In this document: positions 933 to 38,249 of the stretch, piece after piece
Numbering within the stretch: the stretch's first letter is position 1
How the letters are laid out: each line of letters starts with the position of its first letter
Source: an uncultured Acidobacteriota bacterium
GTDB taxonomy: Bacteria; Acidobacteriota; Polarisedimenticolia; Polarisedimenticolales; Polarisedimenticolaceae
Assembly (NCBI GenBank): GCA_963824225.1
Contig: CAWGOF010000003.1
Span: forward strand, 3,040,847-3,104,846
Direction of reading: 5' to 3'
Length of the DNA stretch: 64,000 bases
Notes under the pieces: model-generated
Databases searched by the model: none
What the model was told of the DNA's origin: nothing
The model's input: only the letters and a program-made list of their open reading frames with translations
Position numbers and translations under genes: made by a program

Positions 933-988
933 GCTGCGATGAGACTACCAGAGCCGCCCGCACCCACACGAGCTATCGTGCCGGACGC

Positions 989-2392: not shown

Positions 2393-2446
2393 GGGGGTCA
2401 GGTCTCGGGGTCAGGTCTTAGGGTCAGACCCCGAGACCTGACCCCC
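2393..2446. repeat. palindromic repeat family 1 (GGGGTCAGGTCTC-based), copy 1, immediately after kmo stop
   Basis: gggggtcaggtctcggggtcaggtcttagggtcagaccccgagacctgaccccc; imperfect inverted repeat, same unit recurs at 11525, 12567, 18975, 21411. Confidence 0.85.
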
Positions 2447-3139: not shown

Positions 3140-5416
3140 GTGGAAGACGACCGTCGAGAGTCGGCGCCGGCCGGAGACCGGACCTGGGTCCAGGGCTCGG
3201 GCGCGAGCGCCGCGCGCACGGACGAGACGATCGGCAACTACCGTGTGCTGCGCACGCTCGGCGAGGGCGGAATGGGCCTGGTCTACGAGGCCGAGCAGGT
3301 CCGCCCGGTCCGCCGGCGCGTGGCGCTGAAGGTCATCCGCACCGGGCTCGAGGGGGACGACATCCGCCTGCGCTTCGAGTCCGAGCGCCAGGCGCTGGCG
3401 CTGATGGATCACCCGGCGATCGCCCGCGTGTTCGACGCCGGGGTCACGGCCGAGGGTCGACCGTTCTTCGCCATGGAGCTGGTCGACGGCGTGCCGATCA
3501 CGGAGCTGTGCGACCGCGAGCGGCTCGACCTGAAGGAGCGGTTGCGCCTCTTCGCCCTGGTCTGCGACGGCGTCCAGCACGCGCACCAGAAGGGGATCAT
3601 CCACCGCGACATCAAGCCATCGAACGTCCTGGTCGCCGGGTCGGGCGCCGAGCGCTCGATCAAGATCATCGACTTCGGTGTGGCCAAGGCCACGACCGAG
3701 CGCCTGACCGACCGGACGTTCATGACCGAGATGGGCCAGCTCGTCGGCACGCCGCAGTACATGAGCCCCGAGCAGGCCGACATGCGCGGCCTGGACATCG
3801 ACACGCGGACCGACGTGTACCTGCTCGGCACGCTGCTCCACGAGCTGCTCACGGGCTGCCTGCCGTTCGACCCGCGGCTGCTCCACGAGCGCGGCCTGAC
3901 CGAGTACCGCCGGCAGGTGGTGGAGGTCGACCCGCTGCGCCCGAGCGAGCGGCTGGCCAAGCTCGAGCCCGCGGCGGCGCGCGAGGCCGCGCAGCTCCGC
4001 TCGACCGAGCCACTGGCGCTCGTGCGCGCGCTGCGCGGCGATCTCGACGCGATCACGGTCAAGGCGCTCGAGAAGGACCGGGCGCAGCGCTACGCCTCGG
4101 CGTCCGAGCTCGCCGCAGACGTCGGGCGGTTCCTGCGCAACGAGCCGGTGACGGCGACGCCGCCGAGCGGCCTGTACCAGCTGCGGAAGTTCGCCCGGCG
4201 CCATCGCGTGGGCGTCGCCTTCGCCTCGGTCGTGGTCGTGCTGCTCGCCGGTTTCGGCGTGTCGATGGCGGTCTACGCCTCGGCCCTCGCGCGGGCGCGC
4301 GATCGCGCGGAGAGCCAGACCCAGGCCGCGAACCAGGTGGCGGGCTACCTGGTCGACCTGTTCGACAGCAGCGATCCGGAGAAGGCGGACCGCTCGACCG
4401 TGACCGTCCTCCAGGTCCTGCACCAGGGCCGGGACCGGATCAAGGACCTCGCCGGGCAGCCGGTGCTCCAGGCCCGGATGCTGCGCACGATGGGCGAGGT
4501 GTACACGAGCGCCGGATTCCTCGAGGAAGCGCGCCCGCTCCTCGAGGATGCGCTGCGCATCAGGCGGGAGCAGCTAGAGCGCGAGCAACAGGGGGTCACC
4601 GCGCTCGACGTGGCGGAGGCCGAGACGAGCCTGGCCGGCCTGCTCGTGCAGCTCGGGGAATACGACCGCGTGCAGTCGCTCTACGCGGACGCGCTGGCCA
4701 CGCGCGAAGCCGAGCTCGGTCCGAACGACCTCGAGGTCGCGCGGAGCATGACCAACCTGGCGAACATCTTGGGCCTGACCGGCCGGGACGCAGAGGCGGA
4801 GGAGCTGCACCGGAAGGCGTTCGAGATCCGCGAGAGAACGCTCGAGCCGGACGACCCCGAGATCGCGACGAGCCGGGCGAACCAGGCGATGCACCTCGAG
4901 CGCGCGGGCAACTACGCCGAGGCGCGACCGCTCTACGAGCGAGCGCTGGCCACCTGGCGCCGGGTCGACCCGCCGAACGTCCCGCGGACGCTCGAGCGGC
5001 TCGGTTGCGTCGCCGAGGCCGAGGGCGACCTGCCGACCGCCGTTCGTTACCACGAGCAGGCGCTCGAGCTGCGCCGCTCGATCTACGGGAGCGATCACAG
5101 CGACGTGGCCAAGAGCCTGCTCGCGCTCGCGACGCTGAGCGCGCGGCAGGGCGACACGGCTCGGGCGACGGCGCTCCACGACGAGGCGCACGCGATCTAC
5201 GAGCGCGCGCACCAGCTCGACACGCCGATCGTCCAGTACCAGGAGGCGGGCTACCTGGCGACGGTCGGCCGCACGGCCGAGGCCGTGGAGCTTCTGCGCC
5301 TGGCGGTCGTCGACGGCGGCTACGCGAACGCGAACGAGCTCCTGCGCGACGTGCGCTTCCGCCCGCTCGCGGCAGATCCGGGGTTCCAGGCCATCGTCGC
5401 CGCCGCCAAGAAGTAA
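3140..5416 (+). CDS. Ser/Thr protein kinase with C-terminal TPR repeats
   Basis: 758 aa; GEGGMGLVYEA...ALKVI...HRDIKPSNVLV...DFGVAK...PQYMSPE kinase motifs, TM segment, then multiple TPR-like repeats (AEAEELHRKAFEIRE... etc.). Confidence 0.85.
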   Translation: MEDDRRESAPAGDRTWVQGSGASAARTDETIGNYRVLRTLGEGGMGLVYEAEQVRPVRRRVALKVIRTGLEGDDIRLRFESERQALALMDHPAIARVFDAGVTAEGRPFFAMELVDGVPITELCDRERLDLKERLRLFALVCDGVQHAHQKGIIHRDIKPSNVLVAGSGAERSIKIIDFGVAKATTERLTDRTFMTEMGQLVGTPQYMSPEQADMRGLDIDTRTDVYLLGTLLHELLTGCLPFDPRLLHERGLTEYRRQVVEVDPLRPSERLAKLEPAAAREAAQLRSTEPLALVRALRGDLDAITVKALEKDRAQRYASASELAADVGRFLRNEPVTATPPSGLYQLRKFARRHRVGVAFASVVVVLLAGFGVSMAVYASALARARDRAESQTQAANQVAGYLVDLFDSSDPEKADRSTVTVLQVLHQGRDRIKDLAGQPVLQARMLRTMGEVYTSAGFLEEARPLLEDALRIRREQLEREQQGVTALDVAEAETSLAGLLVQLGEYDRVQSLYADALATREAELGPNDLEVARSMTNLANILGLTGRDAEAEELHRKAFEIRERTLEPDDPEIATSRANQAMHLERAGNYAEARPLYERALATWRRVDPPNVPRTLERLGCVAEAEGDLPTAVRYHEQALELRRSIYGSDHSDVAKSLLALATLSARQGDTARATALHDEAHAIYERAHQLDTPIVQYQEAGYLATVGRTAEAVELLRLAVVDGGYANANELLRDVRFRPLAADPGFQAIVAAAKK

Positions 5417-5478: not shown

Positions 5479-7395
<1,917 letters not shown>

Positions 7396-7520
7396 GGGTC
7401 GGCAGCTCTCCCCTGCAGGTGGCGTCGGCGGAGCCAGCTTCCCGGGGCTGGTCCCGGCGTCCCCTAATCTACCGCGGTCGGGCGCGGGCGGCGGAACCGC
7501 GGGGTCGAGGACGCGAAAAA

Positions 7521-7569
7521 AGCGCGGAGGCGGATTCCCCCTGAGGTCACCGCCTCCGCGAACAGGGGA
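7521..7569 (-). terminator. intrinsic-terminator-like hairpin in leader between sigma54 promoter B and the activator gene
   Basis: minus-strand reading: GCGGAGGCGG-(16 nt loop)-CCGCCTCCGCG followed by CTTTTTTCGCG; same stem sequence as hairpin at 14712-14745. Confidence 0.55.
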
Positions 7570-7628: not shown

Positions 7629-7644
7629 AGCAAGGCAAATGCCA
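7629..7644 (-). promoter_or_regulatory. sigma54 (-24/-12) promoter B
   Basis: minus-strand TGGCATTTGCCTTGCT = GG-N10-GC matching TGGCAC-N5-TTGCW consensus; ~235 nt upstream of activator start. Confidence 0.6.
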
Positions 7645-7695: not shown

Positions 7696-7711
7696 CTATC
7701 CGAACGGATAG
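7696..7711. promoter_or_regulatory. palindromic upstream-activator-site-like motif CTATCCG-AA-CGGATAG
   Basis: perfect palindrome 52 bp upstream of promoter B; same motif at 8541-8556 and 14576-14589. Confidence 0.5.
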
Positions 7712-7756
7712 TCGGGAGGCGGGGGGCTAACCGGTGAGATAGTCCAGAAAGGCGAA

Positions 7757-7790
7757 GGCGGGATCCTTACCGGGTCCCGCCTTCGCGCGC
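7757..7790 (-). terminator. hairpin terminator following the peptide array
   Basis: minus-strand GGCGGGACCCGGTAAGGATCCCGCC followed by TTCGCCTTTCTGG, ~25 nt after stop of peptide copy 1. Confidence 0.5.
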
Positions 7791-7813
7791 TCGAGAATCG
7801 ATGCTCGTCTCCA

Positions 7814-7888
7814 TCAGCGGATGTAGCTCTTGCGGGGCGGAAGGGCGACGGACTCGGCACCGGCTTTGATCTGGCTCTTGGTCTTCAT
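7814..7888 (-). CDS. 24-aa peptide, copy 1 of 6 (MKTKSQIKAGAESVALPPRKSYIR)
   Basis: ATG at 7886-7888 preceded by GGAGAGA; TGA stop; unit of a 100-bp tandem repeat. Confidence 0.6.
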   Translation of the reverse strand: MKTKSQIKAGAESVALPPRKSYIR

Positions 7889-7935
7889 GGCATCTCTCCG
7901 TTTTGCGTTCGGCGTTTGTGTTCGTTCGTTCCATC

Positions 7936-8010
7936 TCAGCGGATGTAGGTCTTGCGGGGCGGAAGGGAAACGGACTCGGCACCGGCTTTGATCTGGCTCT
8001 TGGTCTTCAT
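7936..8010 (-). CDS. 24-aa peptide, copy 2 (MKTKSQIKAGAESVSLPPRKTYIR)
   Basis: ATG 8008-8010 preceded by acGAGGAGaacgcc; TGA stop. Confidence 0.6.
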   Translation of the reverse strand: MKTKSQIKAGAESVSLPPRKTYIR

Positions 8011-8034
8011 GGCGTTCTCCTCGTCTGTTCGGCG

Positions 8035-8109
8035 TTAGCGGATGTAGCTCTTGCGGGGCGGAAGGGAAACGGACTCGGCACCGGCTTTGATCTGGCTCTT
8101 GGTCTTCAT
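8035..8109 (-). CDS. 24-aa peptide, copy 3 (MKTKSQIKAGAESVSLPPRKSYIR)
   Basis: ATG 8107-8109 preceded by GAGGAG 8 nt upstream; TAA stop. Confidence 0.6.
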   Translation of the reverse strand: MKTKSQIKAGAESVSLPPRKSYIR

Positions 8110-8134
8110 GGCGTTCTCCTCGTTTCGTTCGGCG

Positions 8135-8209
8135 TTAGCGGATGTAGGTCTTGCGGGGCGGAAGGGAAACGGACTCGGCACCGGCTTTGATCTGGCTCTT
8201 GGTCTTCAT
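8135..8209 (-). CDS. 24-aa peptide, copy 4 (…PPRKTYIR variant)
   Basis: ATG 8207-8209 preceded by GAGGAG; TAA stop. Confidence 0.6.
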   Translation of the reverse strand: MKTKSQIKAGAESVSLPPRKTYIR

Positions 8210-8234
8210 GGCGTTCTCCTCGTTTCGTTCAGCG

Positions 8235-8309
8235 TTAGCGGATGTAGCTCTTGCGGGGCGGAAGGGAAACGGACTCGGCACCGGCTCTGATCTGGCTCTT
8301 GGTCTTCAT
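8235..8309 (-). CDS. 24-aa peptide, copy 5 (MKTKSQIRAGAESVSLPPRKSYIR; K8R variant)
   Basis: ATG 8307-8309 preceded by GAGGAG; TAA stop; one substitution (ccggctctga) changes K to R. Confidence 0.6.
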   Translation of the reverse strand: MKTKSQIRAGAESVSLPPRKSYIR

Positions 8310-8334
8310 GGCATTCTCCTCGTTTCGTTCGGCG

Positions 8335-8409
8335 TTAGCGGATGTAGCTCTTGCGGGGCGGAAGGGAAACGGACTCGGCACCGGCTTTGATCTGGCTCTT
8401 GGTCTTCAT
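8335..8409 (-). CDS. 24-aa peptide, copy 6 (first transcribed; MKTKSQIKAGAESVSLPPRKSYIR)
   Basis: ATG 8407-8409 preceded by AGGAGGcccacg; TAA stop. Confidence 0.6.
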   Translation of the reverse strand: MKTKSQIKAGAESVSLPPRKSYIR

Positions 8410-8452
8410 CGTGGGCCTCCTTTCTTTCTTGTTTGGCCACGCCTCCTGATAG

Positions 8453-8468
8453 AGCAATGGCGATGCCA
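8453..8468 (-). promoter_or_regulatory. sigma54 (-24/-12) promoter C driving the six-peptide array
   Basis: minus-strand TGGCATCGCCATTGCT (GG-N10-GC), ~45 nt upstream of peptide copy 6 ATG; nearly identical to promoter A at 14620-14635. Confidence 0.65.
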
Positions 8469-8540
8469 GGCTCAGAAGCGGGAAAACCGCTCGATCGCTA
8501 TCCGTTAGGTTCTCGCGCGGGGGTCGCGCGGCGGTTCGAG

Positions 8541-8556
8541 CTATCCGAGCGGATAG
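8541..8556. promoter_or_regulatory. palindromic UAS-like motif CTATCCG-AG-CGGATAG (plus half-site CTATCCG at 8498-8504)
   Basis: perfect palindrome ~73 bp upstream of promoter C, position typical for bEBP binding. Confidence 0.5.
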
Positions 8557-8562
8557 CGCGAC

Positions 8563-10713
8563 CTACGGATGGGCGATCACGAGGAGCGTCGGCGCGCGCT
8601 CGAGCACGCAGGTCATGCAGCGGCGCAGGCTCTCGGGGTCGAGCGCGGCGAAGCTCTCGTCGAGCACGACGAGCTCGGCGCGCTGGAGCAGCGCGCGGGC
8701 GATGTACACGCGGCTGCGCTCGCCGTGCGAGAGCTGCCAGCCGGTCTCGCCGACCATCTGCAGCAGGCCCGCGGGCATGCGATCGAGGAGCGGGCCGAGG
8801 CCCAGCTCGCGGCACACCTTGTCCGCCTCGGCCAGGTCGTCGACGTGGGCCGGCCAGCCGCGGCCCATCAGCAGGTTGAACGCGAGCGTTCCTGTGAGCA
8901 CGTGGTTCTCGTGGAACTGCGGCGCCGTGGCGATGCGCGAGCGCCAGGCCGGGATGCCGAGCGTCGCCCGATCGAGGCCGCCGAGGAGCACGAGCCCCGA
9001 TCCGGGCTGGCGCAGGCCGGCGACGATCGAGGCCAGAGTCGACTTCCCGCCGCCCGATGGCCCCTCGAGCAGCACGCGGTCGCCGGGATCGATGCGCAGC
9101 GAGCAGCCGCGGAGCACGGGCTCGCCGCGGTCGACGTAGCGGAACACGACGTCCGACGCCGAGACGAGCGGCCCCGCCGCGTCCGCCGCGGCGGCGCCCT
9201 TCGCGCGCTCCGCGGCGGCGGTCGCCGCAGCGGCGGCGCGGGGCGGGCGGACGATCTGGGGTCGCGCGGCCGCGCGGAAGAGCGGGGCGATCGCGCGCCA
9301 GGCCACGATCGCCCCGGCGACGTGCCGCGCGCCGCCGGCGAGGCGCGAGAGCGCCTGGTGCGCCAGGAACACGCCGCCGAGCCCGATCGCGAGCTCCTCG
9401 ACCGACGCCGTGCCGCGCACGAACGCCGGCGCGAGGCCGGCGAGACCGACGGCGAGCCAGCCGGTCGGGATCGCGAGCGACAGCGTGGCGCCCGTGCGAT
9501 CGAGATGCCGCGACCGCGCGAGCAGCCGATCGAGCGCCTCGTCCTCGCCCGCATGCCAGCGCGAGCGCGACTCCTGGGCCAGGCGCGTGCGATGGCCGAC
9601 GAGCCGCTCGACGAGGTCGTGCGTCAGGCCGACGCGCGTCCCGGTCCAACCCTCGCGTGCCCCGAGGTAGCGCAGGCCGACGAGCAGGGTCAGCGCGACC
9701 CAAGAGAACAGCGCGAGGACGTGGAGCACGCCCCCGGCCCCGAACGCCAGGACCAACGCCGCGGCGAAGATCTCGATCCCGGCGAGGATGCCGACGAGAC
9801 CCCCGCTGATGGCGAGCGACTCGACCGCTTCGGACTCGATCACCTGGCCGAGGAGCTGGCCCACGCCGCGATGCCGGATCTCCTCGGGCTCGAGGCGCAG
9901 CGCGGCGGCGAGCAGCCGGCGCTTGATCAGACCGCCCGCGGCGAGGGCGACGAGGCCCTGGCACCAGCTCGCGAGCATGCCCAGCGGAACGAGCGTCAGG
10001 AGGATCAGGGCCCAGGCGACGAGCCAGCCCGCATCGAGCCGGCCCTCGAGCGCGCCGCGGCCGATCGTCCACCACGACAGGATCCACAGCGCGCAGCTCG
10101 ACGCGTAGGCCAGGACCAGGCCGCCGAGGGCGCGCGGGAGGCCGATCCCGCGCAGCTGGTCGAGGAAGTCGGCCGACGGCGGAAGCGCGATGCTCCACAC
10201 GCCGTCGATCGGCTCCGTGCCGAGCCGCTCGCCGAGAAGCGCGTTCACCGAGCGCGCGCGGCGACCGTGTGGCACCCCGGCGCTCTCGAGGAGCCGGGCG
10301 ATCTCCACGCGCGTCGAGGCTTCGAGCGCTGAGACCTTCTCGCCGAGGACGTCGTCGATCGCGACCCACACGCGCGATCCGTCGGGCGCGAGGAGCTCGA
10401 CGCGGCGGCGGCTCCCGCGCAGGACGACGAGAAGCGCGGCGACAGCAGCGCCGATGCGCACGAGCGCCGGTCCGCTCGTGCGGAGCCACCGCGCGAGCTC
10501 GGCGTGCGACAGGCCGAGCTCGTCGATCTCGATGCCGATCCAGGCCGCGGCCTCGTCGAGCCAGCGCTCGAGCGCTTTGCGGTCGCGCGGCGGAGGGCCC
10601 GCATCCCCGAGCGCCCGCGGCTCGAGACCGGCGTCCGCGGTGAGCGCCTCGAGCGCATCGCCCAGGCGGTCGAACGGCCAGGCGTACGCCGCGATCCCCG
10701 TCGCGCGGCTCAC
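8563..10713 (-). CDS. ABC transporter, fused permease/ATP-binding protein (no peptidase domain)
   Basis: six-TM region then ABC ATPase: GPSGGGKST Walker A, LSHGERSRVYIARAL signature, VLDESFAALD Walker B; probable GTG start overlapping stop of upstream PCAT gene (GTGA). Confidence 0.7.
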   Translation of the reverse strand: MSRATGIAAYAWPFDRLGDALEALTADAGLEPRALGDAGPPPRDRKALERWLDEAAAWIGIEIDELGLSHAELARWLRTSGPALVRIGAAVAALLVVLRGSRRRVELLAPDGSRVWVAIDDVLGEKVSALEASTRVEIARLLESAGVPHGRRARSVNALLGERLGTEPIDGVWSIALPPSADFLDQLRGIGLPRALGGLVLAYASSCALWILSWWTIGRGALEGRLDAGWLVAWALILLTLVPLGMLASWCQGLVALAAGGLIKRRLLAAALRLEPEEIRHRGVGQLLGQVIESEAVESLAISGGLVGILAGIEIFAAALVLAFGAGGVLHVLALFSWVALTLLVGLRYLGAREGWTGTRVGLTHDLVERLVGHRTRLAQESRSRWHAGEDEALDRLLARSRHLDRTGATLSLAIPTGWLAVGLAGLAPAFVRGTASVEELAIGLGGVFLAHQALSRLAGGARHVAGAIVAWRAIAPLFRAAARPQIVRPPRAAAAATAAAERAKGAAAADAAGPLVSASDVVFRYVDRGEPVLRGCSLRIDPGDRVLLEGPSGGGKSTLASIVAGLRQPGSGLVLLGGLDRATLGIPAWRSRIATAPQFHENHVLTGTLAFNLLMGRGWPAHVDDLAEADKVCRELGLGPLLDRMPAGLLQMVGETGWQLSHGERSRVYIARALLQRAELVVLDESFAALDPESLRRCMTCVLERAPTLLVIAHP

Positions 10714-13379
10714 GCGTTCTCTCGGACGCGCCCGTCGTCCAGGCGAAACCTGCGCCACGAGCGCGTGCTCTCGAGCCCGTCCCGCAGCTCGCGCTCGGTG
10801 TCGAGGAGCGCGCCGAGGCGCGAATCGGGCTTGCGTGTCAGCTCTGAGGGTGCTCCGTCCTCGACGATCCGTCCGTTCTCGACGACGAGGACGCGCTCGA
10901 AGGATGCGGCGTCCGAGACGTCGTGGGTGATGCACACGAGCGTCGCCGCGCGCCATTCCTTGCGCACGGCGGCGAGGAGCCTTGCGCGCTGCGCCCGATC
11001 GAGGCCGCGGAACGGCTCGTCGAGGATCGCCAAGCGCACGTCCTCGCGCAGGAGCGCGCGGCCGAGGCGCACGCGCTGGCCCTCACCGCCCGAGACGAGC
11101 GCCCCGCCTTCGCCGAGCGCGGTCTGCAGGCCGTCGGGCAGCCGCTCGACGAGCTTGCGCATCTCGGCCACCTCGAGCGCGCGGCCGACGGCGGTGCCGT
11201 CGGCGCCGGGCCCGCCGTACTGCAGGTTGTCGAGGAGCGAGCGGTTCCAGATCTGCACGGCGGGATCGACCCACGCGGTTCTCTCGCGGAGCCAGGCGAT
11301 GCGCGGGGCATCGAGCGGAGCGCCGTCGACCGTGATCGCACCTGAAGACGCCCGGTGCCAGCCGAGGAGCAGGCCGACGAGCGTCGACTTGCCGGCGCCC
11401 GACGGGCCGACGATCGCCACGTGTTCGCCGGCTCCGATGTCGAGCCGCACGTTGGTCAGGATCTCGTGGCCCGCAGCGCGCACGCTCACGCCGTCGAGCT
11501 CGATCCGTACGCCAGAAGAAGAAGTGGGGTCAGGTCTCGGGGTCAGGTCTTTCGACCTGACCCGCAGACCTGACCCCACCTCGTCCTCCATCTCCTCCGG
11601 CGCACCGAGCGGCTCGAGGAGGCGGAGCGTGAGGTTGCGCACCTCGGGGTACTGGCGCAGCGCGAGAGCCAAGCTCTGTCCGAGCGCCGGGAGGTGCAGG
11701 GCCCAGAAGACGAGGAGCAGGACGACCGACGCATCGCCGCCACGCGCGGCATGGGCCAGGACGATCCACGCCGCAAGTCCGAACCCGCACACGCCCCCGA
11801 GCGCCTCGACGCCGACGAGGGCGCTCTGAAGCGCGACGCCGGCGCGGGCCCACTTCGCGAGAAGCGACTCGTGCTCGCGCCTGACGGCGCGCTCGGCCCG
11901 ATGGCAGCGGATCGGGACGAGGCCGAGAAGGGCGTCGAAGTAGAACCGGCTCAGCGCGCCGACGTGCGTCCGCACGCGCATGTCGCGCTCGACGAGGAGC
12001 GGCTGCGCGCACAGGGGCAGCGCGACCGAGACGCTCGCCAGGATGCAGGCCAGGGGCGCGCTCGCCGGGTCGAGCCATGTGATCCCGGCGACGGTGAGCA
12101 CGAGGCCGAAGAGCGCATGGAGCGCCTGGCGTCCGATCTCGGGCAGCTCGCGAATCTGATGCAGGCTGTGGCTGCGCTCGGCCATGTCCGACGCGAGACG
12201 GCTGTGGAAGTACCGGTCGGGCAGACGCGGGATCTTGCGCAGGAACGCGACGCGCAGGCGCAGCTCGAGCTTGCGCCCAAGTCTCAGGACACCGGCGGCG
12301 AGCGGGATCTCGAGGAGCGCGAGCGCGGTAAGGAACAGCAGCACGGCCGCCGTCGCCGCGAGGCGCTGCCGCGCAAGCCCGAGGTCCGACCACACGTGCA
12401 GCAGGCCGCGAAACACGAGCGCCTCGACGAGCACGCCCGCGGCGGCGAGGCCGAGCGCGGAGACGAGGACCGTCGGCGCAAGGAGGCCGTCCGCGCGCAG
12501 CAGGCGCAGCAGCTCGCGGCCCGCTCGCGCGGGCCGCTCCTCGAGCGCCGAGGCGAGCTCCACGGAGGGGTCAGGTCTCGGGGTCAGGTCTTTCGACCTG
12601 ACCCCGTTCACCCTGACAAGCACGATGCCGCTCGCGGCGACCCGCTCCTGCCCCTCGGGCCCGGCCTCGGCTGGCTTGACCGACCAGCATCCGGCCGGGA
12701 TCGCCGCACCGTCGGCGTTCTCGACGAGCGCGTCGAGGACGCGCAGACACTCGGTCCCGCGCGCCAGCCCGCCCGACCGCACGATCGCGGTCACCGCCCG
12801 CGTCGCCGCGTCGAGCGTGGCGAGCTTGCGCCAGCCCTCGTCGGTCGACGCTGCGCCGATGCGCTCGGCGATCGTCGTGCGCTCGAGCCCCAGGGCCGAA
12901 AGCCTCGAGCCGAGCGGCTCGAGGAACGCAGGTGAGCCGGCCCACTCGCGCCAGTACGCCGCATCGACCACCGACTCGTGGATGTAGGCGTCGTCGAGGA
13001 GCCTCTCCCCCGAGATCCACTTGCGCCCTGTGGCGGGGTCCATCACCTGAACCAGGCCGCCGTGCTTGCGCCAGGCCACGACGAAATGCGTGGCTCCGCT
13101 CGGCGAGCGCACGACGAGCAGCGCCGGGAGCTGCGCCCGACCTGGGAGGAGCAGATGATCGGGCGGGATCAGGATCTGCTCGGCCTCGAGCCCCGCGCGC
13201 TGCGCGACCTCTTCGAGCGTGTCGATCGACGTCCCGTCGAGGTCGGTCTGGCACGCCTCGCGCAGCCGGCCGTAGCTCGCGTGGATCCCGAACCCCTGGA
13301 GCAGGCACGCCAGGGCCGCGGGCCCGCAATCCATCGCCGACGTCTGGACGATCTCGGGCGCGAAGTACCGCGGGATCAT
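10710..13379 (-). CDS. peptidase-containing ABC transporter (PCAT): N-terminal C39 peptidase + permease + ATPase
   Basis: 889 aa; N-terminal QTSAMDCGPAALACLLQGFGI C39 cysteine motif; TM domain; GPSGAGKST Walker A, LSGGEGQRVRLGRAL signature, ILDEPFRGLD Walker B; two in-frame palindromic repeat insertions. Confidence 0.8.
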   Translation of the reverse strand: MIPRYFAPEIVQTSAMDCGPAALACLLQGFGIHASYGRLREACQTDLDGTSIDTLEEVAQRAGLEAEQILIPPDHLLLPGRAQLPALLVVRSPSGATHFVVAWRKHGGLVQVMDPATGRKWISGERLLDDAYIHESVVDAAYWREWAGSPAFLEPLGSRLSALGLERTTIAERIGAASTDEGWRKLATLDAATRAVTAIVRSGGLARGTECLRVLDALVENADGAAIPAGCWSVKPAEAGPEGQERVAASGIVLVRVNGVRSKDLTPRPDPSVELASALEERPARAGRELLRLLRADGLLAPTVLVSALGLAAAGVLVEALVFRGLLHVWSDLGLARQRLAATAAVLLFLTALALLEIPLAAGVLRLGRKLELRLRVAFLRKIPRLPDRYFHSRLASDMAERSHSLHQIRELPEIGRQALHALFGLVLTVAGITWLDPASAPLACILASVSVALPLCAQPLLVERDMRVRTHVGALSRFYFDALLGLVPIRCHRAERAVRREHESLLAKWARAGVALQSALVGVEALGGVCGFGLAAWIVLAHAARGGDASVVLLLVFWALHLPALGQSLALALRQYPEVRNLTLRLLEPLGAPEEMEDEVGSGLRVRSKDLTPRPDPTSSSGVRIELDGVSVRAAGHEILTNVRLDIGAGEHVAIVGPSGAGKSTLVGLLLGWHRASSGAITVDGAPLDAPRIAWLRERTAWVDPAVQIWNRSLLDNLQYGGPGADGTAVGRALEVAEMRKLVERLPDGLQTALGEGGALVSGGEGQRVRLGRALLREDVRLAILDEPFRGLDRAQRARLLAAVRKEWRAATLVCITHDVSDAASFERVLVVENGRIVEDGAPSELTRKPDSRLGALLDTERELRDGLESTRSWRRFRLDDGRVRENA
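11525..11578. repeat. palindromic repeat family 1, copy 2, in-frame inside PCAT gene (encodes ...EVGSGLRVRSKDLTPRPDPTSSS...)
   Basis: ggggtcaggtctcggggtcaggtctttcgacctgacccgcagacctgacccca located between permease and ATPase domains without interrupting the ORF. Confidence 0.8.
12567..12605. repeat. palindromic repeat family 1, copy 3, in-frame inside PCAT gene (encodes ...GVRSKDLTPRPDP...)
   Basis: ggggtcaggtctcggggtcaggtctttcgacctgacccc between C39 peptidase and permease domains. Confidence 0.8.
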
Positions 13380-14521
13380 GGCGCAGCGCCGGCGGCGCGC
13401 AGGAGCAGCACGGCCGGTGAGACGCGCTCGACCTCGACCTCGATCGTGCCCGGAAGGCCGTGCTCGAGCGGCAGCTCGGGGTTCGATGCGCCGTCGACTT
13501 CGAGCTCGACGCGCACACGCCCGTCGCGCAGCTCGGTCGACATGTGCGCGACGCGCGCGCGCAGGCTCCCGTACTGGCTCGACGGGAAGCTCGAAAGCCT
13601 CAGCCGCGCCGGCTGTCCCGGGCGGATCCGGCCCAGCGCGGCCTCGGGCGCGAACTCGGCCACGACGTGCAGATCGCCCGAGCCGAGAACCACGCCGAGC
13701 CGGTCGCCGGCGTGCACGAACGCCCCGGCCTCGATCGGTGCGGCCTCGACGATCGTCCCGCGCACGGGCGCGCGGATCGACTTCTCCTCGGCCTCGCGCT
13801 CGAGACGGCCCGCAGCGACCTTCCCCGCACCGATCTCGCCCAGGACGCGCGATACCTCGCGGCGCAGCTGCTCGATCCGCGCCGCGCGGTCGCGCTCGCG
13901 CGTCTGGAGCTCGGGCTCGAGTCGCGCAGCCGCGAGGCGCAGGCTCTCGGCGCTGGCGTTGGCCCGCTCGGCCTCGGCCGCCGCGCGCTCGTACTCGGCG
14001 TCAGACAGGAGCCCCGTGTCGTGCAGCCGCTTCGCGCGATTCAGCGCCTGGGCCGCGGCGGTCGCGGTGACGCTCGCCTCCGTGTGCCGCGCTCGCGCCT
14101 CGGCCAACCCGGCGCGCGCGGCCTCGCGCTCCTGGCCGAGCGCCTGCTCCTGGATCCGGATCTCGCCCTCGAGCGCGCTGAGCTGCGGCGCGAGCGCCCC
14201 CGTGCGCGTCCGCGCCTCCTCGATCCCCAGCCGCTCGGGCTCGGTCGCCAGGGCCACGAGGACCTCGCCCTCCTCGACGGCGCGGCCGAGCGCGAGCGCG
14301 CTCGACACGACGCGCCCCGACACCGGGGCCTCGAGCGCGTGGGCCGCGCGGTCGAGCTCGACCCGCGCCGCCGTGCTCACCTCGTGCACGGCCACGCGGG
14401 CCAGGAACAACCAGGCGGTCCAGGCGGCCAGGAGCACGGCGCCCAGGCCGAGCGCGAGCACGGTTCGGCCGTGCCCGTCGCCCGCGAGACCCCGCATCGT
14501 GCGTGGGAACTCTTCGGACAC
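13376..14521 (-). CDS. HlyD-family membrane fusion/secretion protein
   Basis: 381 aa; N-terminal TM helix, long coiled-coil (AEYERAAAEAERANASAESLRLAAARLEPELQ...), C-terminal beta-barrel region; stop overlaps PCAT ATG (ATGA). Start GTG 14519-14521 or ATG ~14497. Confidence 0.75.
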   Translation of the reverse strand: MSEEFPRTMRGLAGDGHGRTVLALGLGAVLLAAWTAWLFLARVAVHEVSTAARVELDRAAHALEAPVSGRVVSSALALGRAVEEGEVLVALATEPERLGIEEARTRTGALAPQLSALEGEIRIQEQALGQEREAARAGLAEARARHTEASVTATAAAQALNRAKRLHDTGLLSDAEYERAAAEAERANASAESLRLAAARLEPELQTRERDRAARIEQLRREVSRVLGEIGAGKVAAGRLEREAEEKSIRAPVRGTIVEAAPIEAGAFVHAGDRLGVVLGSGDLHVVAEFAPEAALGRIRPGQPARLRLSSFPSSQYGSLRARVAHMSTELRDGRVRVELEVDGASNPELPLEHGLPGTIEVEVERVSPAVLLLRAAGAAP

Positions 14522-14545
14522 GGCCCGACTCTACCGCACTCGCCG

Positions 14546-14589
14546 ATCGGATAGTCGGGCGGCCTCGAGGCAATCCGATCGGATAGGCC
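14546..14589. promoter_or_regulatory. UAS-like palindromes (CCGATCGGATAG; ATCCGATCGGATAG) between HlyD operon start and sigma54 promoter A
   Basis: two copies of the TATCCG-N2-CGGATA-type palindrome, 30-75 bp upstream of promoter A. Confidence 0.45.
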
Positions 14590-14619
14590 GCGCCGGGGAG
14601 AGCCCCGTTTTTCGGCTGG

Positions 14620-14635
14620 CATCGCCGTTGCTATT
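14620..14635 (+). promoter_or_regulatory. sigma54 (-24/-12) promoter A
   Basis: TGGCATCGCCGTTGCT on plus strand; one mismatch from promoter C. Confidence 0.6.
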
Positions 14636-14646
14636 TCTCTTGGCCG

Positions 14647-14756
14647 AGGCCGAACGAGAAAGGACGCGAATCAGACCTACCCCCTGCGGCACAGCGAAAA
14701 CCCCCCTGCAGGCGGAGGCGGAGCGAGCAAGGTTCCGCCTCCGCGTCTTTTTGTTT
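14647..14756 (+). ncRNA. candidate sigma54-dependent small RNA or terminated leader (~110 nt)
   Basis: predicted TSS ~12 nt past promoter A; no ATG-initiated ORF; ends in perfect 10-bp stem GCGGAGGCGG/CCGCCTCCGC (14712-14745) + GTCTTTTTGTTT. Confidence 0.35.
14712..14756 (+). terminator. intrinsic terminator hairpin
   Basis: GCGGAGGCGG-agcgagcaaggtt-CCGCCTCCGC followed by GTCTTTTTGTTT. Confidence 0.6.
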
Positions 14757-14768: not shown

Positions 14769-16451
14769 ATGATTCGCACCCTTATCCGCCTGACGATCGT
14801 TGCGCTCGCAGTTCCGGTCGCCGCCCAGCACGCGCACCACGCCGAGCTCGGCGACGATCGCGCGTTGCAGGACGACCCACGACTCGCCGAGGGCCAGATC
14901 GCGCCGCTCCTCGACGGCCTGGGGGAGCATCACCACAAGGTGACGACGACGTCCGAGCAGGCCCAGCGGTTCTTCGACCAGGGGCTCAAGCTGGCCTACG
15001 GGTTCAACCACCGGGAAGCCCTGCGCGCGTTCAAGGAAGCGGCGCGGCTCGATCCCGACTGCGCGATGGCGTACTGGGGCTGGGCCCTCGTCCTCGGCCC
15101 GAACATCAACCTGCCGATGCCGAAGGACGCGGTGCCCCAGGCGTGGGACGCGATGCAGCTCGCGCTCGCGAAGCGCGACCGCGCAAGCGAGCCCGAGCGC
15201 GCGTACATCGACGCCCTGGCCCAGCGCTACACGAAGGACCCCGACGCCGACCGACTGTCGCTCGATCGGGCGTACGCCGACGCGATGCGCGAGCTCCACA
15301 AGCGCTACCCCGAGGACACGGACGCGGCGACGCTCTTCGCCGAAGCGTTGATGGACGTGTCGCCGTGGAACTACTGGACGCGCGAGGGCAAGCCACGCGA
15401 GAGCACGCTCGAGCTCGTGGCCACGCTCGAGGACGTGCTACGGGCCGACCCGACGCACGAGGGGGCGCTGCACTACTACATCCACGCGGTCGAGGCGGTC
15501 GACGCGGCCCGCGGTGCGGCGGCGGCCGATCGCCTGCGCCCGCTCGCGCCGGGCGCGGGGCACCTGCTGCACATGCCGTCCCACCTGTACATCCAGCTCG
15601 GCCGCTACGCCGACGCGTTCGAGGCCAACGCCCTTGCCGCGCGCTCGGACGAGACCTACGTCACCCAGTGCCGGGCCCAGGGGATCTACCCCCTGAACTA
15701 CTTCCCGCACAACCTGCACTTCCTGGCCTGGGCCGCGTTCTACCAGGGTCGCGGCAAGGAGGCGCTCGAGGCGGCCAACAAGGTGCGCGCCGGCGTGCCC
15801 GCCGATCTCTCGGGGAACGACTGGGGGTTGTTCGAGACGTTCCTGAGCATGCCGCTCTACACGATGGTGCGCTTCGGGATGTGGAACGAGATCCTGGCCG
15901 AGCGCGAGCCGCCGAAGGAGCGGAAGCTCTCGACCGGCGTGTGGCACTACGCCCGGGGCCGCGCATACGCGGCGACGGGCCGCGCGTCCGAGGCCAAGCG
16001 CGAGCTCGCGCGCGTCGAGGCGCTGGCCGAGGACCCGGCGAGCGCCGACGCGCTCGTGGGCTACGCGAACGCGGCGCGCCTGCTCGACATCGCGCGCTAC
16101 GTGCTCGCGGGCGAGATCGCCTCGGCCGAGAAGCGCCACGCCGAGGCGGTCATGCATCTCGATCGCGCGACACGGCTCGAGGACAGCCTGGCCTACAACG
16201 AGCCGCCCGACTGGTACTACCCGGTGCGCCACTCGCTCGGCGCGGCGCTGCTCGAAGCGAAACGGCCGGTCGAGGCCGAGGTCGTGTACTGGCAGGACCT
16301 GCGCAAGTACCCCGAGAACGCCTACGCGCTCTACGGCCTGTGGCGCGCGGCCGAGGCCCAGGGCAAAACCGCGGACGCCGAGGAGTACGAGTCGCGCTAT
16401 CGCGCCGCGTGGTCCAAGGCCGACGCGCCGCTGAAGTCGTCGCGGTACTAA
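14769..16451 (+). CDS. secreted hypothetical protein, TPR-like helical repeats
   Basis: 561 aa; signal peptide MIRTLIRLTIVALAVPVAAQHAHHA; helical repeat-rich; no recognised catalytic motif. Confidence 0.5.
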   Translation: MIRTLIRLTIVALAVPVAAQHAHHAELGDDRALQDDPRLAEGQIAPLLDGLGEHHHKVTTTSEQAQRFFDQGLKLAYGFNHREALRAFKEAARLDPDCAMAYWGWALVLGPNINLPMPKDAVPQAWDAMQLALAKRDRASEPERAYIDALAQRYTKDPDADRLSLDRAYADAMRELHKRYPEDTDAATLFAEALMDVSPWNYWTREGKPRESTLELVATLEDVLRADPTHEGALHYYIHAVEAVDAARGAAAADRLRPLAPGAGHLLHMPSHLYIQLGRYADAFEANALAARSDETYVTQCRAQGIYPLNYFPHNLHFLAWAAFYQGRGKEALEAANKVRAGVPADLSGNDWGLFETFLSMPLYTMVRFGMWNEILAEREPPKERKLSTGVWHYARGRAYAATGRASEAKRELARVEALAEDPASADALVGYANAARLLDIARYVLAGEIASAEKRHAEAVMHLDRATRLEDSLAYNEPPDWYYPVRHSLGAALLEAKRPVEAEVVYWQDLRKYPENAYALYGLWRAAEAQGKTADAEEYESRYRAAWSKADAPLKSSRY

Positions 16452-22369: not shown

Positions 22370-22384
22370 GACCACCTCAAGATA

Positions 22385-38233: not shown

Positions 38234-38249
38234 CGACTACCATTCCGCC

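What the first reader, a model, noticed from the sequence alone, without database searches (positions are those of the whole stretch)
7757..8560. Six tandem 100-bp units each encoding a 24-aa peptide, under a sigma54 promoter and next to a C39-ABC/HlyD export operon
Exactly phased 100-bp repeats each carry a strong RBS (GAGGAG/AGGAGG 6-8 nt before ATG), a 25-codon ORF (MKTKSQIKAGAESV[S/A]LPPRK[S/T]YIR, with one K8R variant) and a stop. The only variants are conservative substitutions and the S15A change in copy 1, and none breaks the ORF, which argues for selection on the peptide rather than on RNA. The array is preceded by a sigma54 -24/-12 element and followed by a hairpin terminator. Directly upstream on the same strand is a HlyD / peptidase-containing ABC transporter (PCAT) / second ABC exporter operon, the classical partners for double-glycine-type leader-peptide maturation and export. 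A short leader ending AG (with Ile at -4) followed by a 14-aa core AESVSLPPRKSYIR is conceivable. No modifying enzyme is obvious nearby. This looks like an undescribed multi-copy secreted or signalling peptide system (bacteriocin, RiPP-like or quorum peptide), and I do not recognise the peptide family.
Basis: seen in the sequence. Interest (0 to 1): 0.9.

Follow-up and report, generated by a model that had tools for sequence, protein, structure and literature searches.

The report
Tandem mini-peptide genes beside a peptide exporter
Six tandem genes for a 24-residue peptide are real, and they belong to a large, apparently undescribed family of tiny peptides found in soil bacteria of many phyla, which probably have their 10-residue leader cut off and are exported by a dedicated transporter, possibly as cell-to-cell signals.

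Summary
On the minus strand, six 24-codon ORFs (MKTKSQIKAGAESVSLPPRKSYIR and three point variants) each have a Shine-Dalgarno site. They sit behind a consensus sigma54 promoter and before a hairpin, directly downstream of HlyD, a C39 peptidase-ABC exporter (PCAT) and a second ABC gene.

The new result is comparative. The ~900-aa PCAT is a huge family (Acidobacteriota, Chloroflexota, Verrucomicrobiota, Myxococcota, Methylococcales and others). In 47 of 84 sequences examined I found 120 mini-ORFs with the same 10-residue N-terminus, M-K-x-K-T/S-x-x-K-A-G, followed by a hypervariable tail of 3-35 residues. A reversed-sequence control gave 1. Many are tandem arrays.

Variation in the leader is concentrated at third codon positions, so selection acts on the peptide. 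An FHA-GAF-sigma54 activator and Ser/Thr kinases co-occur with the arrays.

Best reading: the C39 domain cleaves after Ala-Gly and the transporter exports the short tail; expression is driven by the neighbouring activator. A signalling (autoinducer-like) role is plausible but unproven; a bacteriocin role is the main rival.

No Pfam, NCBIfam or Rfam model matches the peptide or repeat, and no searchable paper contains the leader strings. I rate it a new variant of a known kind.

The parts
8335..8409 (-). Peptide gene 1: MKTKSQIKAGAESVSLPPRKSYIR. RBS is AGGAGG.
8235..8309 (-). Peptide gene 2 (K8R variant)
8135..8209 (-). Peptide gene 3 (S21T variant)
8035..8109 (-). Peptide gene 4 (same peptide as gene 1)
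7936..8010 (-). Peptide gene 5 (S21T variant, TGA stop)
7814..7888 (-). Peptide gene 6 (S15A variant). The spacer before it is 22 nt longer than the others.
8453..8468 (-). Sigma54-type -24/-12 promoter of the array: TGGCATCGCCATTGCT
   Evidence: Conserved in L002, L084 and L086.
8541..8556 (.). Distal upstream activator site. A perfect palindrome, CTATCCG-NN-CGGATAG, about 82 bp upstream of -24.
   Evidence: 4 matches against 0.13 expected
8495..8510 (.). Proximal half-site AACGGATAGCG, conserved in related promoters
7751..7786 (-). Terminator-like hairpin after the array, followed by CUUUCU
7696..7711 (.). Second copy of the palindrome (CTATCCGAACGGATAG)
7629..7644 (-). Second sigma54-type promoter, TGGCATTTGCCTTGCT. 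It heads a decayed peptide module in front of the activator gene.
   Evidence: In L086 the homologous module still encodes MKFKSRMAQPLPYSKRSIPR.
7514..7560 (-). Hairpin plus U-run ending the decayed module. Its stem, GCGGAGGCGG/CCGCCTCCGC, is shared with the third module.
5479..7395 (-). FHA-GAF-AAA+ (GAFTGA) sigma54 enhancer-binding protein, 638 aa, true start ATG 7395
   Evidence: The L001 and L084 orthologues were called at 637 and 642 aa.
8563..10713 (-). Second ABC exporter subunit without a peptidase domain, 716 aa. The GTG start overlaps the PCAT stop.
   Evidence: The L084 orthologue is 701 aa.
10710..13379 (-). C39 peptidase-containing ABC exporter (PCAT), 889 aa. Cys18, His98 and Asp114 are present.
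13376..14521 (-). HlyD-family periplasmic adaptor, 381 aa, with one N-terminal TM segment
14539..14586 (.). Two imperfect copies of the palindrome, at 14539-14554 and 14571-14586
14617..14632 (+). Third sigma54-type promoter, TGGCATCGCCGTTGCT. No ORF lies behind it, so it is an orphaned peptide module. In L002 the same spot holds MKTKSQIKAGATSVGLPTRKSMIP.
14712..14744 (+). Terminator hairpin of the orphaned third module
14769..16451 (+). 560-aa TPR protein carrying a signal peptide. It is syntenic in L002 and L084.
3140..5416 (+). Ser/Thr kinase with one TM segment (aa ~355-385) and a TPR domain predicted to lie outside the cytoplasm. Candidate sensor. Syntenic in L001 and L084 but absent in L086.
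3..944 (-). Ser/Thr kinase, cut by the window edge. It is 44-50% identical to the kinase (Pkinase + PD40 propeller) that follows the ABC genes in acidobacterial loci.

Best explanation
The six ORFs are real, translated mini-genes. They encode precursors of a previously uncatalogued peptide family.

Each precursor has a 10-residue Lys-rich leader (M-K-x-K-T/S-x-x-K-A-G) and a short variable core, here the 14-residue AESVSLPPRKSYIR.

Inferred mechanism:
1. The C39 domain of the adjacent ~900-aa PCAT cleaves after Ala-Gly.
2. The PCAT, the second ABC subunit and the HlyD adaptor export the core.
3. Transcription of the array comes from a sigma54 promoter.
4. That promoter is activated by the FHA-GAF-AAA+ enhancer-binding protein encoded immediately downstream, which binds CTATCCG-NN-CGGATAG sites.
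5. The activator's FHA domain suggests control by the membrane Ser/Thr kinases encoded nearby.

The array is the only visible target of the activator, and the kinases carry extracytoplasmic TPR or beta-propeller domains. The most likely role is therefore a secreted signalling peptide in a self-reinforcing circuit.

What is shown: the genes, the coding constraint, the family, the promoter and site conservation, the intact protease, and the co-occurrence.

What is inferred: cleavage site, export, activator-promoter pairing, kinase input and signalling role.
For: **Coding.**
- There are six hits to the leader pattern against 0 expected.
- The relaxed leader motif gives 120 hits in 1.54 Mb of related loci, against 1 in reversed sequence.
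- Nearly every copy has a Shine-Dalgarno site.
- Codon-position entropy is 0.48, 0.45 and 1.40.

**Leader and core split.**
- Residues 1-10 are near-invariant.
- The genome loci hold 76 distinct tails, and 120 metagenome stretches hold 189 more.
- The residue after the Gly is unconstrained.
- Among close relatives the leader shows synonymous changes only, while the tail varies.
- Multi-unit precursors repeat LKVKTxxKAG before each unit.

**Protease and exporter.**
- PF03412 scores 73.9 bits.
- Cys18, His98 and Asp114 align to PCAT1 C21, H99 and D115.
- The C39 domain is as conserved as the nucleotide-binding domain (65-83% identity).

**Regulation.**
- The window has three exact sigma54 motifs, each preceded by the palindrome.
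- All three are peptide modules, one intact and two decayed.
- Nine promoters from five loci share two upstream sites and the -24/-12 element.
- The activator has FHA, GAF and Sigma54_activat domains (250 bits).

**Co-occurrence across 82 loci.** All 17 loci with a full-length activator homologue have mini-peptides.
- 14 of the 17 have a GG-N10-GC element upstream.
- 15 of the 17 have the STK2-type kinase.
- Fisher p is 1e-5 for the promoter element and 7.5e-8 for the kinase.

In the ~22-kb acidobacterial loci, the near-consensus sigma54 motif occurs essentially only in front of the array.

**Kinase topology.** One TM segment separates the kinase domain from the TPR domain.

**Copy number.** It varies among relatives: 6, 3, 2 plus one decayed, 2 and 1.
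Against: - There are no expression, cleavage or secretion data.
- The leader is non-canonical for C39 exporters. It has 10 residues, Ala rather than Gly at -2, Lys at -7 and no -12 residue.
[quoted passage not shown] LahT150 was shown to accept a leader trimmed to 14 residues (PMC6363468).
- No outer-membrane channel gene is in the cluster.
- The exporter operon has no sigma54 promoter of its own.
- The co-occurrence statistics are not corrected for phylogeny, and many activator-positive loci are related Acidobacteriaceae.
- The STK-TPR kinase is missing from the relative L086.
- 36 of 87 loci held showed no strict mini-ORF, although many of these are short contigs.
- Nothing distinguishes a signal from an antimicrobial peptide by sequence alone.
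Confidence: 0.55

Rival explanations
1. The peptides are unmodified antimicrobial peptides (class II bacteriocin or microcin-like). They are exported by the PCAT to kill competitors, and sigma54/activator control only sets when they are made. The cationic, proline-containing core (LPPRK..Y.R) could act on an intracellular target.
For: - PCAT/HlyD cassettes are the classic bacteriocin exporters, and the nearest solved structures are bacteriocin or pheromone PCATs.
- Hypervariable cores behind a fixed leader, and multi-copy arrays with diversified cores (15 different copies in L018), look like arms-race diversification.
- The window core carries a net positive charge (sequence).
Against: - No immunity-like small membrane protein gene lies next to the array.
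- Many family cores are only 3-6 residues (modal length 6, xxxWG[SGTA]), which is shorter than any known bacteriocin.
- The cores lack amphipathic or hydrophobic character.
- The six window copies are nearly identical rather than diversified.
- The tight linkage to a kinase and an activator whose only visible target is the array fits signalling better.
Confidence: 0.2
2. The peptides are precursors of a post-translationally modified natural product (RiPP). The modifying enzyme is either unlinked or is one of the neighbours, for example the VioC/kynurenine-monooxygenase-like FAD monooxygenase at 989-2386 acting on the conserved aromatic residue.
For: - The conserved-leader, variable-core architecture is RiPP-like.
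- The FAD monooxygenase is syntenic in the window, L084, L086 and a fourth metagenome contig.
- The window-type cores keep an aromatic or Met residue at position 22.
- Some family cores carry Cys pairs.
Against: - No recognised RiPP maturase lies in the locus: no radical SAM, YcaO, LanM, P450 or similar.
- The monooxygenase has no homologue in the 80 genome loci.
- Its best NCBIfam match is VioC, far below the cutoff (177.7 against 760 bits).
- A 10-residue leader is short for enzyme recognition.
Confidence: 0.1
3. The peptides are not exported and act inside the cell. For example, they might be ligands of the activator's GAF domain, or kinase substrates or decoys. The conserved N-terminus would then be the functional part rather than a leader.
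For: - The N-terminal decapeptide is more conserved than typical leaders.
- It does not fit the canonical recognition rules for C39.
- The peptides contain Ser, Thr and Tyr residues that could be phosphorylated.
Against: - Mini-ORFs are recurrently adjacent to HlyD/PCAT/ABC2 across phyla.
- The C39 domain co-conserved with the leader is catalytically intact.
- Multi-unit precursors with the motif before each unit look like processing sites.
Confidence: 0.08
4. The array is a non-coding repeat (an sRNA, a REP-type element or a regulatory repeat), and the ORFs are incidental.
For: Units inside the array are 97% identical, so within-array conservation alone cannot separate coding from non-coding constraint.
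Against: - Variation in the leader is concentrated at third codon positions across 99 distinct DNA versions.
- The amino-acid motif is conserved across phyla with very different GC content.
- A Shine-Dalgarno site precedes every copy.
- The reversed-sequence control gave 1 hit against 120.
- There is no Rfam match.
Confidence: 0.02

Closest known systems
Double-glycine-leader peptides exported by peptidase-containing ABC transporters (ComC/ComAB, class II bacteriocins, PCAT1/CtA, LahT substrates)
   Same: - A papain-like C39 domain with a Cys/His/Asp triad is fused to an ABC exporter, alongside a HlyD-type accessory protein.
- The precursor gene lies next to the exporter.
- Gly sits at the predicted P1 position and a hydrophobic residue at -4.
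- Any residue is tolerated after the cut (PMC6363468).
   Different: - The leader is 10 residues, not about 15-30.
- Position -2 is Ala, giving AG rather than GG, GA or GS.
- The leader is Lys-rich with an alternating pattern, Lys at -7 and nothing at -12.
- Cores can be as short as 3-6 residues.
- The PCAT is about 900 aa, with an extra ~160-residue region between C39 and the membrane domain that has no fold match.
- A second ABC subunit is always present.
NHLP/Nif11 leader-peptide systems with the three-gene export cassette (TIGR03794 / TIGR03796 / TIGR03797)
   Same: - The three-gene logic is the same: HlyD adaptor, C39-ABC, and a second ABC without an active peptidase.
- These are the best-scoring named NCBIfam models for the PCAT.
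- Both have many paralogous precursors with a fixed leader and hypervariable cores.
   Different: - All three proteins score far below the family cutoffs: 194.8 against 853.3, 110.9 against 709.4, and 32.9 against 156.2 bits.
- The precursors have no NHLP or Nif11 domain.
- No maturase is linked.
Peptide-pheromone autoinduction circuits of Gram-positive bacteria (ComCDE, BlpCRH, three-component bacteriocin regulons)
   Same: - A PCAT-processed short peptide has its gene controlled by a dedicated regulator encoded alongside.
- The regulator's visible target is the peptide gene itself.
   Different: - The predicted sensing and output parts are Ser/Thr kinases with outside TPR or PD40 domains, an FHA-GAF enhancer-binding protein and sigma54. 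They are not a histidine kinase and response regulator.
- The hosts are diderm soil bacteria.
- Nothing has been tested experimentally.
HetC of Nostoc PCC 7120, a PCAT of a Gram-negative bacterium thought to export a signalling peptide (PMC10986499)
   Same: A C39-ABC exporter in a diderm bacterium, proposed to process and export a small regulatory peptide rather than a toxin.
   Different: - The HetC substrate is unknown.
- HetC has an N-terminal cyclic-nucleotide-binding domain.
- It has no sigma54 or FHA-activator linkage and no KAG-leader peptides.
FHA-domain sigma54 enhancer-binding proteins of Myxococcus xanthus, coupled to Ser/Thr kinases (recalled from memory: Jelsbak, Givskov & Kaiser, PNAS 2005; not checked here)
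   Same: An FHA domain is fused to a sigma54 AAA+ activator in a kinase-rich genome, implying phospho-Thr-dependent control.
   Different: Those activators control developmental genes. None is known to me to drive an array of exported mini-peptide genes.

Membership tests
Peptidase C39 / PCAT exporters | PF03412 match above the gathering score, together with an ABC ATPase domain | tested here: met
   Peptidase_C39 scores 73.9 bits (cutoff 22) and ABC_tran 80.9 bits. The membrane and ATPase parts align to PCAT1 residues 181-711.
Peptidase C39 / PCAT exporters | Catalytic Cys, His and Asp in the conserved motifs | tested here: met
   Cys18, His98 and Asp114 align to PCAT1 C21, H99 and D115. They are invariant in 49 family members.
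Peptidase C39 / PCAT exporters | Papain-like C39 fold | tested here: met
Peptidase C39 / PCAT exporters | Cleaves and exports the neighbouring peptide | not testable with these tools
   Needs biochemistry or genetics.
Canonical double-glycine leader peptides | Leader ends in Gly-Gly, Gly-Ala or Gly-Ser (Gly at -2) | tested here: not met
   The leader ends Ala-Gly. Ala (rarely Ser) is at -2 in 99 of 99 distinct leaders. The rule is taken from PMC6363468.
Canonical double-glycine leader peptides | Helical leader of about 13 or more residues, with hydrophobic residues at -4, -7 and -12 | tested here: not met
   The leader has 10 residues. Position -4 is Ile, Val or Thr (met), -7 is Lys, and there is no -12.
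NHLP/Nif11 bacteriocin system | The export proteins reach the TIGR03794, TIGR03796 and TIGR03797 cutoffs | tested here: not met
   Scores are 32.9 against 156.2, 194.8 against 853.3 and 110.9 against 709.4 bits.
NHLP/Nif11 bacteriocin system | The precursor carries an NHLP or Nif11 leader domain | tested here: not met
   No NCBIfam or Pfam hit for the peptides at E <= 1 to 10.
Sigma54-dependent promoter with a bacterial enhancer-binding protein | -24 GG and -12 GC separated by 10 nt, matching TGGCAC-N5-TTGCW | tested here: met
   TGGCATCGCCATTGCT at 8468..8453. It is conserved in four related loci.
Sigma54-dependent promoter with a bacterial enhancer-binding protein | A nearby AAA+ activator with the GAFTGA loop, and upstream binding sites | tested here: met
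   Sigma54_activat scores 250.5 bits, and GAFTGA is present in the sequence. Palindromes lie 40-82 bp upstream of all three promoters.
Sigma54-dependent promoter with a bacterial enhancer-binding protein | Transcription depends on RpoN and on the activator | not testable with these tools
   Needs mutants or in-vitro transcription.
RiPP (modified peptide) gene cluster | A maturase gene co-localised and co-conserved with the precursor | tested here: not met
   No known maturase family is in the locus. The FAD monooxygenase is syntenic only in close relatives and absent from the 80 genome loci.
KAG-leader mini-peptide family (defined here) | N-terminus M-[KR]-x-[KR]-[TSA]-x-x-[KR]-[AS]-G, followed by a short variable tail and a stop | tested here: met
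   All six window ORFs match. The family has 120 members in the genome loci and 274 in the metagenome stretches.
KAG-leader mini-peptide family (defined here) | Encoded within about 10 kb of the ~900-aa PCAT, second ABC and HlyD cassette | tested here: met
   The array starts 154 nt downstream of the second ABC gene. The same cassette is present in the loci that carry mini-ORFs.

The most novel reading that the evidence does not exclude
The window shows one instance of a peptide-based cell-cell signalling system that spans several phyla of diderm soil bacteria (Acidobacteriota, Myxococcota, Chloroflexota, Verrucomicrobiota and others).

Proposed circuit:
1. Mini-precursors carry a universal 10-residue K-x-K-T-x-x-K-A-G leader.
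2. A dedicated PCAT cuts them and exports them.
3. The 6-14-residue product is sensed outside the cell by a eukaryote-like Ser/Thr receptor kinase with a TPR or beta-propeller ectodomain.
4. The kinase signals through the FHA domain of a sigma54 activator.
5. The activator switches the peptide array on, closing an autoinduction loop.

This would be functionally analogous to Gram-positive pheromone circuits but built from entirely different parts.
Probability: 0.3. Interest if true: 0.9.

Novelty: new variant of a known kind. Interest (0 to 1): 0.75.

Why it matters
Peptide pheromones exported by C39-ABC transporters are textbook biology for Gram-positive bacteria. They are almost unknown in Gram-negative soil phyla, and the cell-to-cell chemistry of Acidobacteria is essentially uncharted.

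**A simple recognition rule.** A 10-residue leader that can be written as a regular expression pulls out hundreds of ultra-short genes (16-25 codons). Gene callers and curated HMM libraries miss these genes. They sit beside a very common but unstudied ~900-aa exporter family.

**A testable wiring diagram.** The co-occurrence suggests receptor Ser/Thr kinase, then FHA-sigma54 activator, then peptide array. The predicted mature peptides are short enough to buy as synthetic peptides. The hypothesis can therefore be tested at once in any cultivable carrier.

**Biochemical interest regardless of role.** Even if the peptides prove to be antimicrobials, the leader defines a new substrate class for C39 proteases. 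It cuts at Ala-Gly and has no helical -7/-12 anchor. It could also serve as a minimal secretion or cleavage tag.

Tried and rejected
**Leads that gave nothing:**
A doubled peptide worked and gave six metagenome ORFs.
- Exact-pattern scans for the window's own leader variant (MKTKSQI[KR]AGA) found nothing in the GTDB species genomes or in the metagenome contig set. The window-type core is therefore rare. Its relatives came only from the protein index.
- NCBIfam and Pfam scans of the 24-mer, of concatenated 16-mers and of multi-unit precursors gave no family.
- Rfam gave no gathering-level hit in the window. In the array region at E<=1 it gave only a spurious mir-483 hit over the terminator hairpin.
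- Literature searches found nothing relevant. I tried leader and core strings (MKVKTN, KTNVKAG, KSQIKAG, NHNQTL and others) and topic words. Subscription-only papers are not covered.
- A search with the methyladenine glycosylase gave only a weak hint of the taxon. The nearest named hits, at 74-79% identity, are Polyangiales/Polyangiaceae MAGs.

**Readings I considered and rejected:**
- The long plus-strand ORFs across the repeat (79-95 aa). They are antisense artefacts of the repeat.
- The 724-aa version of the activator ORF. It contains the second promoter and a terminator, and the orthologues start at the ATG equivalent to 7395.
- PqqA-, mycofactocin- or cittilin-type precursors. No motif matches and no maturase is present.
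Full report
**1. The observation**

The region is 70% G+C and the feature lies on the minus strand. Tandem Repeats Finder reports a period-100 array at 7938-8409 (4.7 copies, 97% matches, score 895). A degenerate back-translation of MKTKSQI[KR]AGA matches six times, all on the minus strand, against 0.00 expected in 100 shuffles.

The six 24-codon ORFs are 8335-8409, 8235-8309, 8135-8209, 8035-8109, 7936-8010 and 7814-7888. ATG-to-ATG spacing is 100, 100, 100, 99 and 122 nt.

The peptides are MKTKSQIKAGAESVSLPPRKSYIR (three copies), one K8R variant, two S21T variants and one S15A variant. The S15A copy is the last one transcribed. Each ATG is preceded at 6 nt by AGGAGG, GAGGAG or GGAGAG.

A sigma54-type element, TGGCATCGCCATTGCT, sits at 8468..8453. 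It is one of only three exact matches to TGGCAY-N5-TTGCW in the 64 kb. A 12-bp G+C hairpin followed by CUUUCU closes the array (-37 kcal/mol, z = -3.6).

So the description is right. The corrections are the strand, the not-quite-exact phasing and the numbering of the S15A copy.

**2. The neighbours**

I called genes by third-position G+C and annotated them with Pfam and NCBIfam. The minus-strand order is:

- HlyD adaptor, 14521..13376
- C39 peptidase-ABC exporter (PCAT), 13379..10710, 889 aa
- Second ABC subunit without a peptidase, 10713..8563; its GTG start overlaps the PCAT stop
- The peptide array
- An FHA-GAF-AAA+ sigma54 enhancer-binding protein (Sigma54_activat 250 bits, GAFTGA present)

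The activator's true start is the ATG at 7395, giving 638 aa. Three things support this. The longer ORF contains a promoter and a terminator. The metagenome orthologues were called at 637 and 642 aa. The FHA domain begins at the N-terminus of the short form.

Further left lie four more genes:

- A Ser/Thr kinase, 3140-5416 on the plus strand. A single TM segment (aa ~355-385) places its TPR domain outside the cytoplasm.
- A 169-aa protein with a signal peptide and a PEP-CTERM-like tail.
- A VioC/kynurenine-monooxygenase-like FAD enzyme.
- A second kinase, cut by the window edge.

To the right, divergent from HlyD, is a 560-aa TPR protein carrying a signal peptide.

**3. Three promoter modules, not one**

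A perfect palindrome, CTATCCG-NN-CGGATAG, occurs at 8541-8556 (about 82 bp upstream of the array's -24) and at 7696-7711. Two imperfect copies lie at 14539-14586. That is four matches against 0.13 expected. Each palindrome group precedes one of the three exact sigma54 motifs.

The third module (promoter at 14617-14632, plus strand) has no ORF behind it, only a remnant and a terminator hairpin. In the metagenome contig L002, the same spot between HlyD and the TPR protein holds an intact gene, MKTKSQIKAGATSVGLPTRKSMIP.

The second module (promoter at 7644..7629, hairpin with U-run at about 7560..7514) sits in front of the activator gene. In relative L086 the homologous module still encodes a degenerate copy, MKFKSRMAQPLPYSKRSIPR.

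So the window holds one live array and two decayed peptide modules. Read-through of the second module could give the activator positive autoregulation, but that is inference.

Nine promoters from the window, L001, L002, L084 and L086 align. They share two upstream sites about 32 bp apart and the -24/-12 element.

**4. Close relatives**

A doubled peptide query found six ORFs in JGI and ENA metagenomes. Their contigs, and those of the closest PCAT homologues, show the same synteny. Copy number and tail differ:

| Locus | Copies | Tail after the leader |
|---|---|---|
| L084 (PCAT 75% identical) | 3 | VTSVALPPRKNYIK |
| L086 (PCAT 68% identical) | 2 different, plus 1 decayed | STAVRLPSRKNYV and GATVRLPSRKSFIP |
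| L001 | at least 3 (the first is cut by the contig end) | AESVALPPRKNYIR |
| L002 | 1 | ATSVGLPTRKSMIP |

In all of these the first ten codons differ only synonymously (AAA/AAG, GCC/GCA, GGT/GGC/GGA), while the tail changes. The tail keeps a V-x-L-P-x-R-K-x-[YFM] core.

**5. The family**

A scan of GTDB species genomes returned 80 loci. They come from Acidobacteriota (Acidobacteriaceae, Bryobacteraceae, Pyrinomonadaceae, Blastocatellia), Gemmatimonadales, Planctomycetota, Chloroflexota, Verrucomicrobiota, Rhodothermales, Myxococcales, Methylococcales and others.

Tandem Repeats Finder on these loci showed small repeated ORFs. A six-frame regular expression then found 120 mini-ORFs of the form M-[KR]-x-[KR]-[TSA]-x-x-[KR]-[AS]-G plus up to 35 residues. 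They lie in 47 of 84 sequences (1.54 Mb). The same sequences reversed gave 1.

Examples:

- MKVKTNTKAG-SALWGS, in arrays of 3-5 copies in many Acidobacteriaceae
- MKTKTRVKAG-SRIWRPLG, 4 copies, in a Chloroflexia genome
- MKIKTKIKAG-PGSSWDG, in a Myxococcales MAG
- 15 different copies in one Pyrinomonadaceae locus (L018)
- Long precursors that repeat LKVKTNVKAG-x4-NHNQTLVRG units

Across 99 distinct leader DNAs, mean entropy at codon positions 1, 2 and 3 is 0.48, 0.45 and 1.40. Lys, Ala and Gly use all their codons. The regular expression fixes several residues, so low entropy at positions 1 and 2 is partly built in. The wobble spread and the control count are not built in.

After the Gly the sequence is hypervariable. 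There are 76 distinct tails, the modal length is 6, and the next residue can be almost anything.

These hold 274 mini-genes and 189 further tails.

No Pfam or NCBIfam model matches these peptides, and Rfam finds nothing in the window. The leader strings occur in none of about 8 million searchable papers.

**6. The protease**

The C39 domain aligns to PCAT1 with Cys18, His98 and Asp114 on C21, H99 and D115. These residues are invariant in 49 family members.

An extra helical-plus-strand region (about aa 140-300) has no specific fold match.

The three export proteins resemble the NHLP cassette but score far below its cutoffs.

**7. Why the leader is unusual**

According to PMC6363468:

- Canonical leaders end in GG, GA or GS.
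- LahT150 accepted a leader trimmed to 14 residues.

Here the leader is 10 residues, ends in Ala-Gly, has Lys at -7 and alternates Lys with Val, Thr or Ile.

I favour cleavage after the Gly rather than one residue later. The following residue is unconstrained, and it is Val in L084 and Pro, Arg or Phe elsewhere.

**8. Regulation and sensing across the family**

I ran tblastn with the window proteins against the loci. Seventeen loci have a full-length FHA-GAF activator homologue at 47-54% identity.

- All 17 have mini-peptides.
- 14 have a GG-N10-GC element 25-130 nt upstream of a peptide gene.
- 15 carry a kinase 44-50% identical to the window's edge kinase.

In L009 that kinase is an 853-aa Pkinase plus PD40 propeller protein encoded right after the second ABC gene. 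Fisher p is 1e-5 for the promoter element and 7.5e-8 for the kinase. These values are not corrected for phylogeny.

In the ~22-kb acidobacterial loci, the near-consensus sigma54 motif occurs essentially once, directly in front of the array and next to the divergent activator gene. The exporter operon has none. In loci without the activator, such as L018 and L049, the arrays lack the motif.

**9. Interpretation**

*Shown:*
- Real coding mini-genes.
- A family spanning several phyla, defined by a 10-residue N-terminus.
- Genetic linkage to an intact C39 exporter cassette.
- Conserved sigma54 promoters with conserved upstream sites.
- Co-occurrence with an FHA-GAF activator and Ser/Thr kinases.

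*Inferred:*
- Cleavage after Ala-Gly, and export.
- Activator-promoter pairing.
- Kinase-to-FHA input.
- The biological role.

I favour a secreted signal in a self-reinforcing loop, for four reasons. The array is the only visible output of the activator. The kinases have outside domains of peptide-binding types. No immunity gene is present. Most family cores are too short and bland for membrane-active toxins.

A bacteriocin role is the main rival. A modified-peptide role cannot be excluded for the window lineage, because a FAD monooxygenase is syntenic in its close relatives. It is absent from the wider family.

**10. Novelty**

Leader cleavage and export by a C39-ABC transporter is a known kind of system. 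Four things appear undescribed:

- The leader class.
- The extreme shortness of the products.
- The ~900-aa exporter clade with its obligatory second ABC subunit.
- The kinase, FHA-activator and sigma54 wiring.

I therefore rate it a new variant of a known kind. The literature check covers only open-access text.

Noticed in passing
window 2394-2445, 11526-11577, 12567-12592, 18975-19000, 21410-21461; also L002 1175-1235: A 13-nt unit, GGGGTCAGGTCTC, occurs 13 times against 0.18 expected. It appears as direct pairs facing an inverted copy, like a REP or miniature palindromic element. Two insertions lie in frame inside the PCAT gene, in hypervariable linkers, and give the peptide VRSKDLTPRPDP twice (around aa 258 and 606). 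Homologues lack these segments.
   Followed up: partly
window 33823-51436: This is a lower-GC (0.62-0.68) defence island:
- an IS91-type transposase
- a type I restriction-modification system (methylase 36336-38135, specificity subunit 41648-43015, a nuclease fragment fused to a Schlafen domain at 48719-51436)
- an AbiEii gene
- a GmrSD-like gene
- a complete Gabija pair, with GajA at 42922-44700 (658 bits) and GajB at 44938-46584 (563 bits)

The last three sit between the type I genes.
   Followed up: partly
L037 1543-8166, L053 3214-3597, L051 7791-8572, L005 33-320 and 7530-7928, L039 1136-1357: Some relatives encode long precursors of 3-5 repeated units, LKVKTNVKAG-x4-NHN(Q/E)T-x-x-R-G. 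Every unit contains an Asn-x-Thr sequon. This suggests iterative processing and perhaps Asn modification. No family model matches them.
   Followed up: partly
L018 6653-8326: A Pyrinomonadaceae locus has 14 consecutive mini-genes directly upstream of HlyD, plus a fifteenth at 15059-15145. All share the leader but have different Pro/Gly-rich tails (for example PQPNDPPIVVTGG and VEPPIIVQGGG). There is no sigma54 motif. This is a diversified rather than a homogenised array.
   Followed up: no
window 14769-16451: The 560-aa exported TPR protein next to HlyD gives a weak but significant match to the TPR part of TIGR04510, 'putative peptide modification system cyclase' (E 8.9e-7, 27.8 bits against a cutoff of 400). 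It may be a peptide-binding partner. It is syntenic only in the close relatives.
   Followed up: no
window 2455-2964 (minus strand): A 169-aa protein has a signal peptide and a C-terminal tail resembling a PEP-CTERM sorting signal: a hydrophobic helix followed by RRR. It matches no family and is syntenic in L001, L084 and L086.
   Followed up: no
window 19050-22429: A third Ser/Thr kinase (with TPR) and a PP2C-type SpoIIE phosphatase lie a few kb beyond the exporter operon. They are syntenic in L084. L086 keeps only the phosphatase. The neighbourhood is unusually rich in Ser/Thr signalling genes.
   Followed up: no
L040 7568 (plus strand): A second FHA-GAF activator homologue in this acidobacterial locus also has a consensus sigma54 motif beside it (TGGCACCACGTTTGCT). 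My regular expression found no mini-ORF behind it, so it may drive a variant leader.
   Followed up: no
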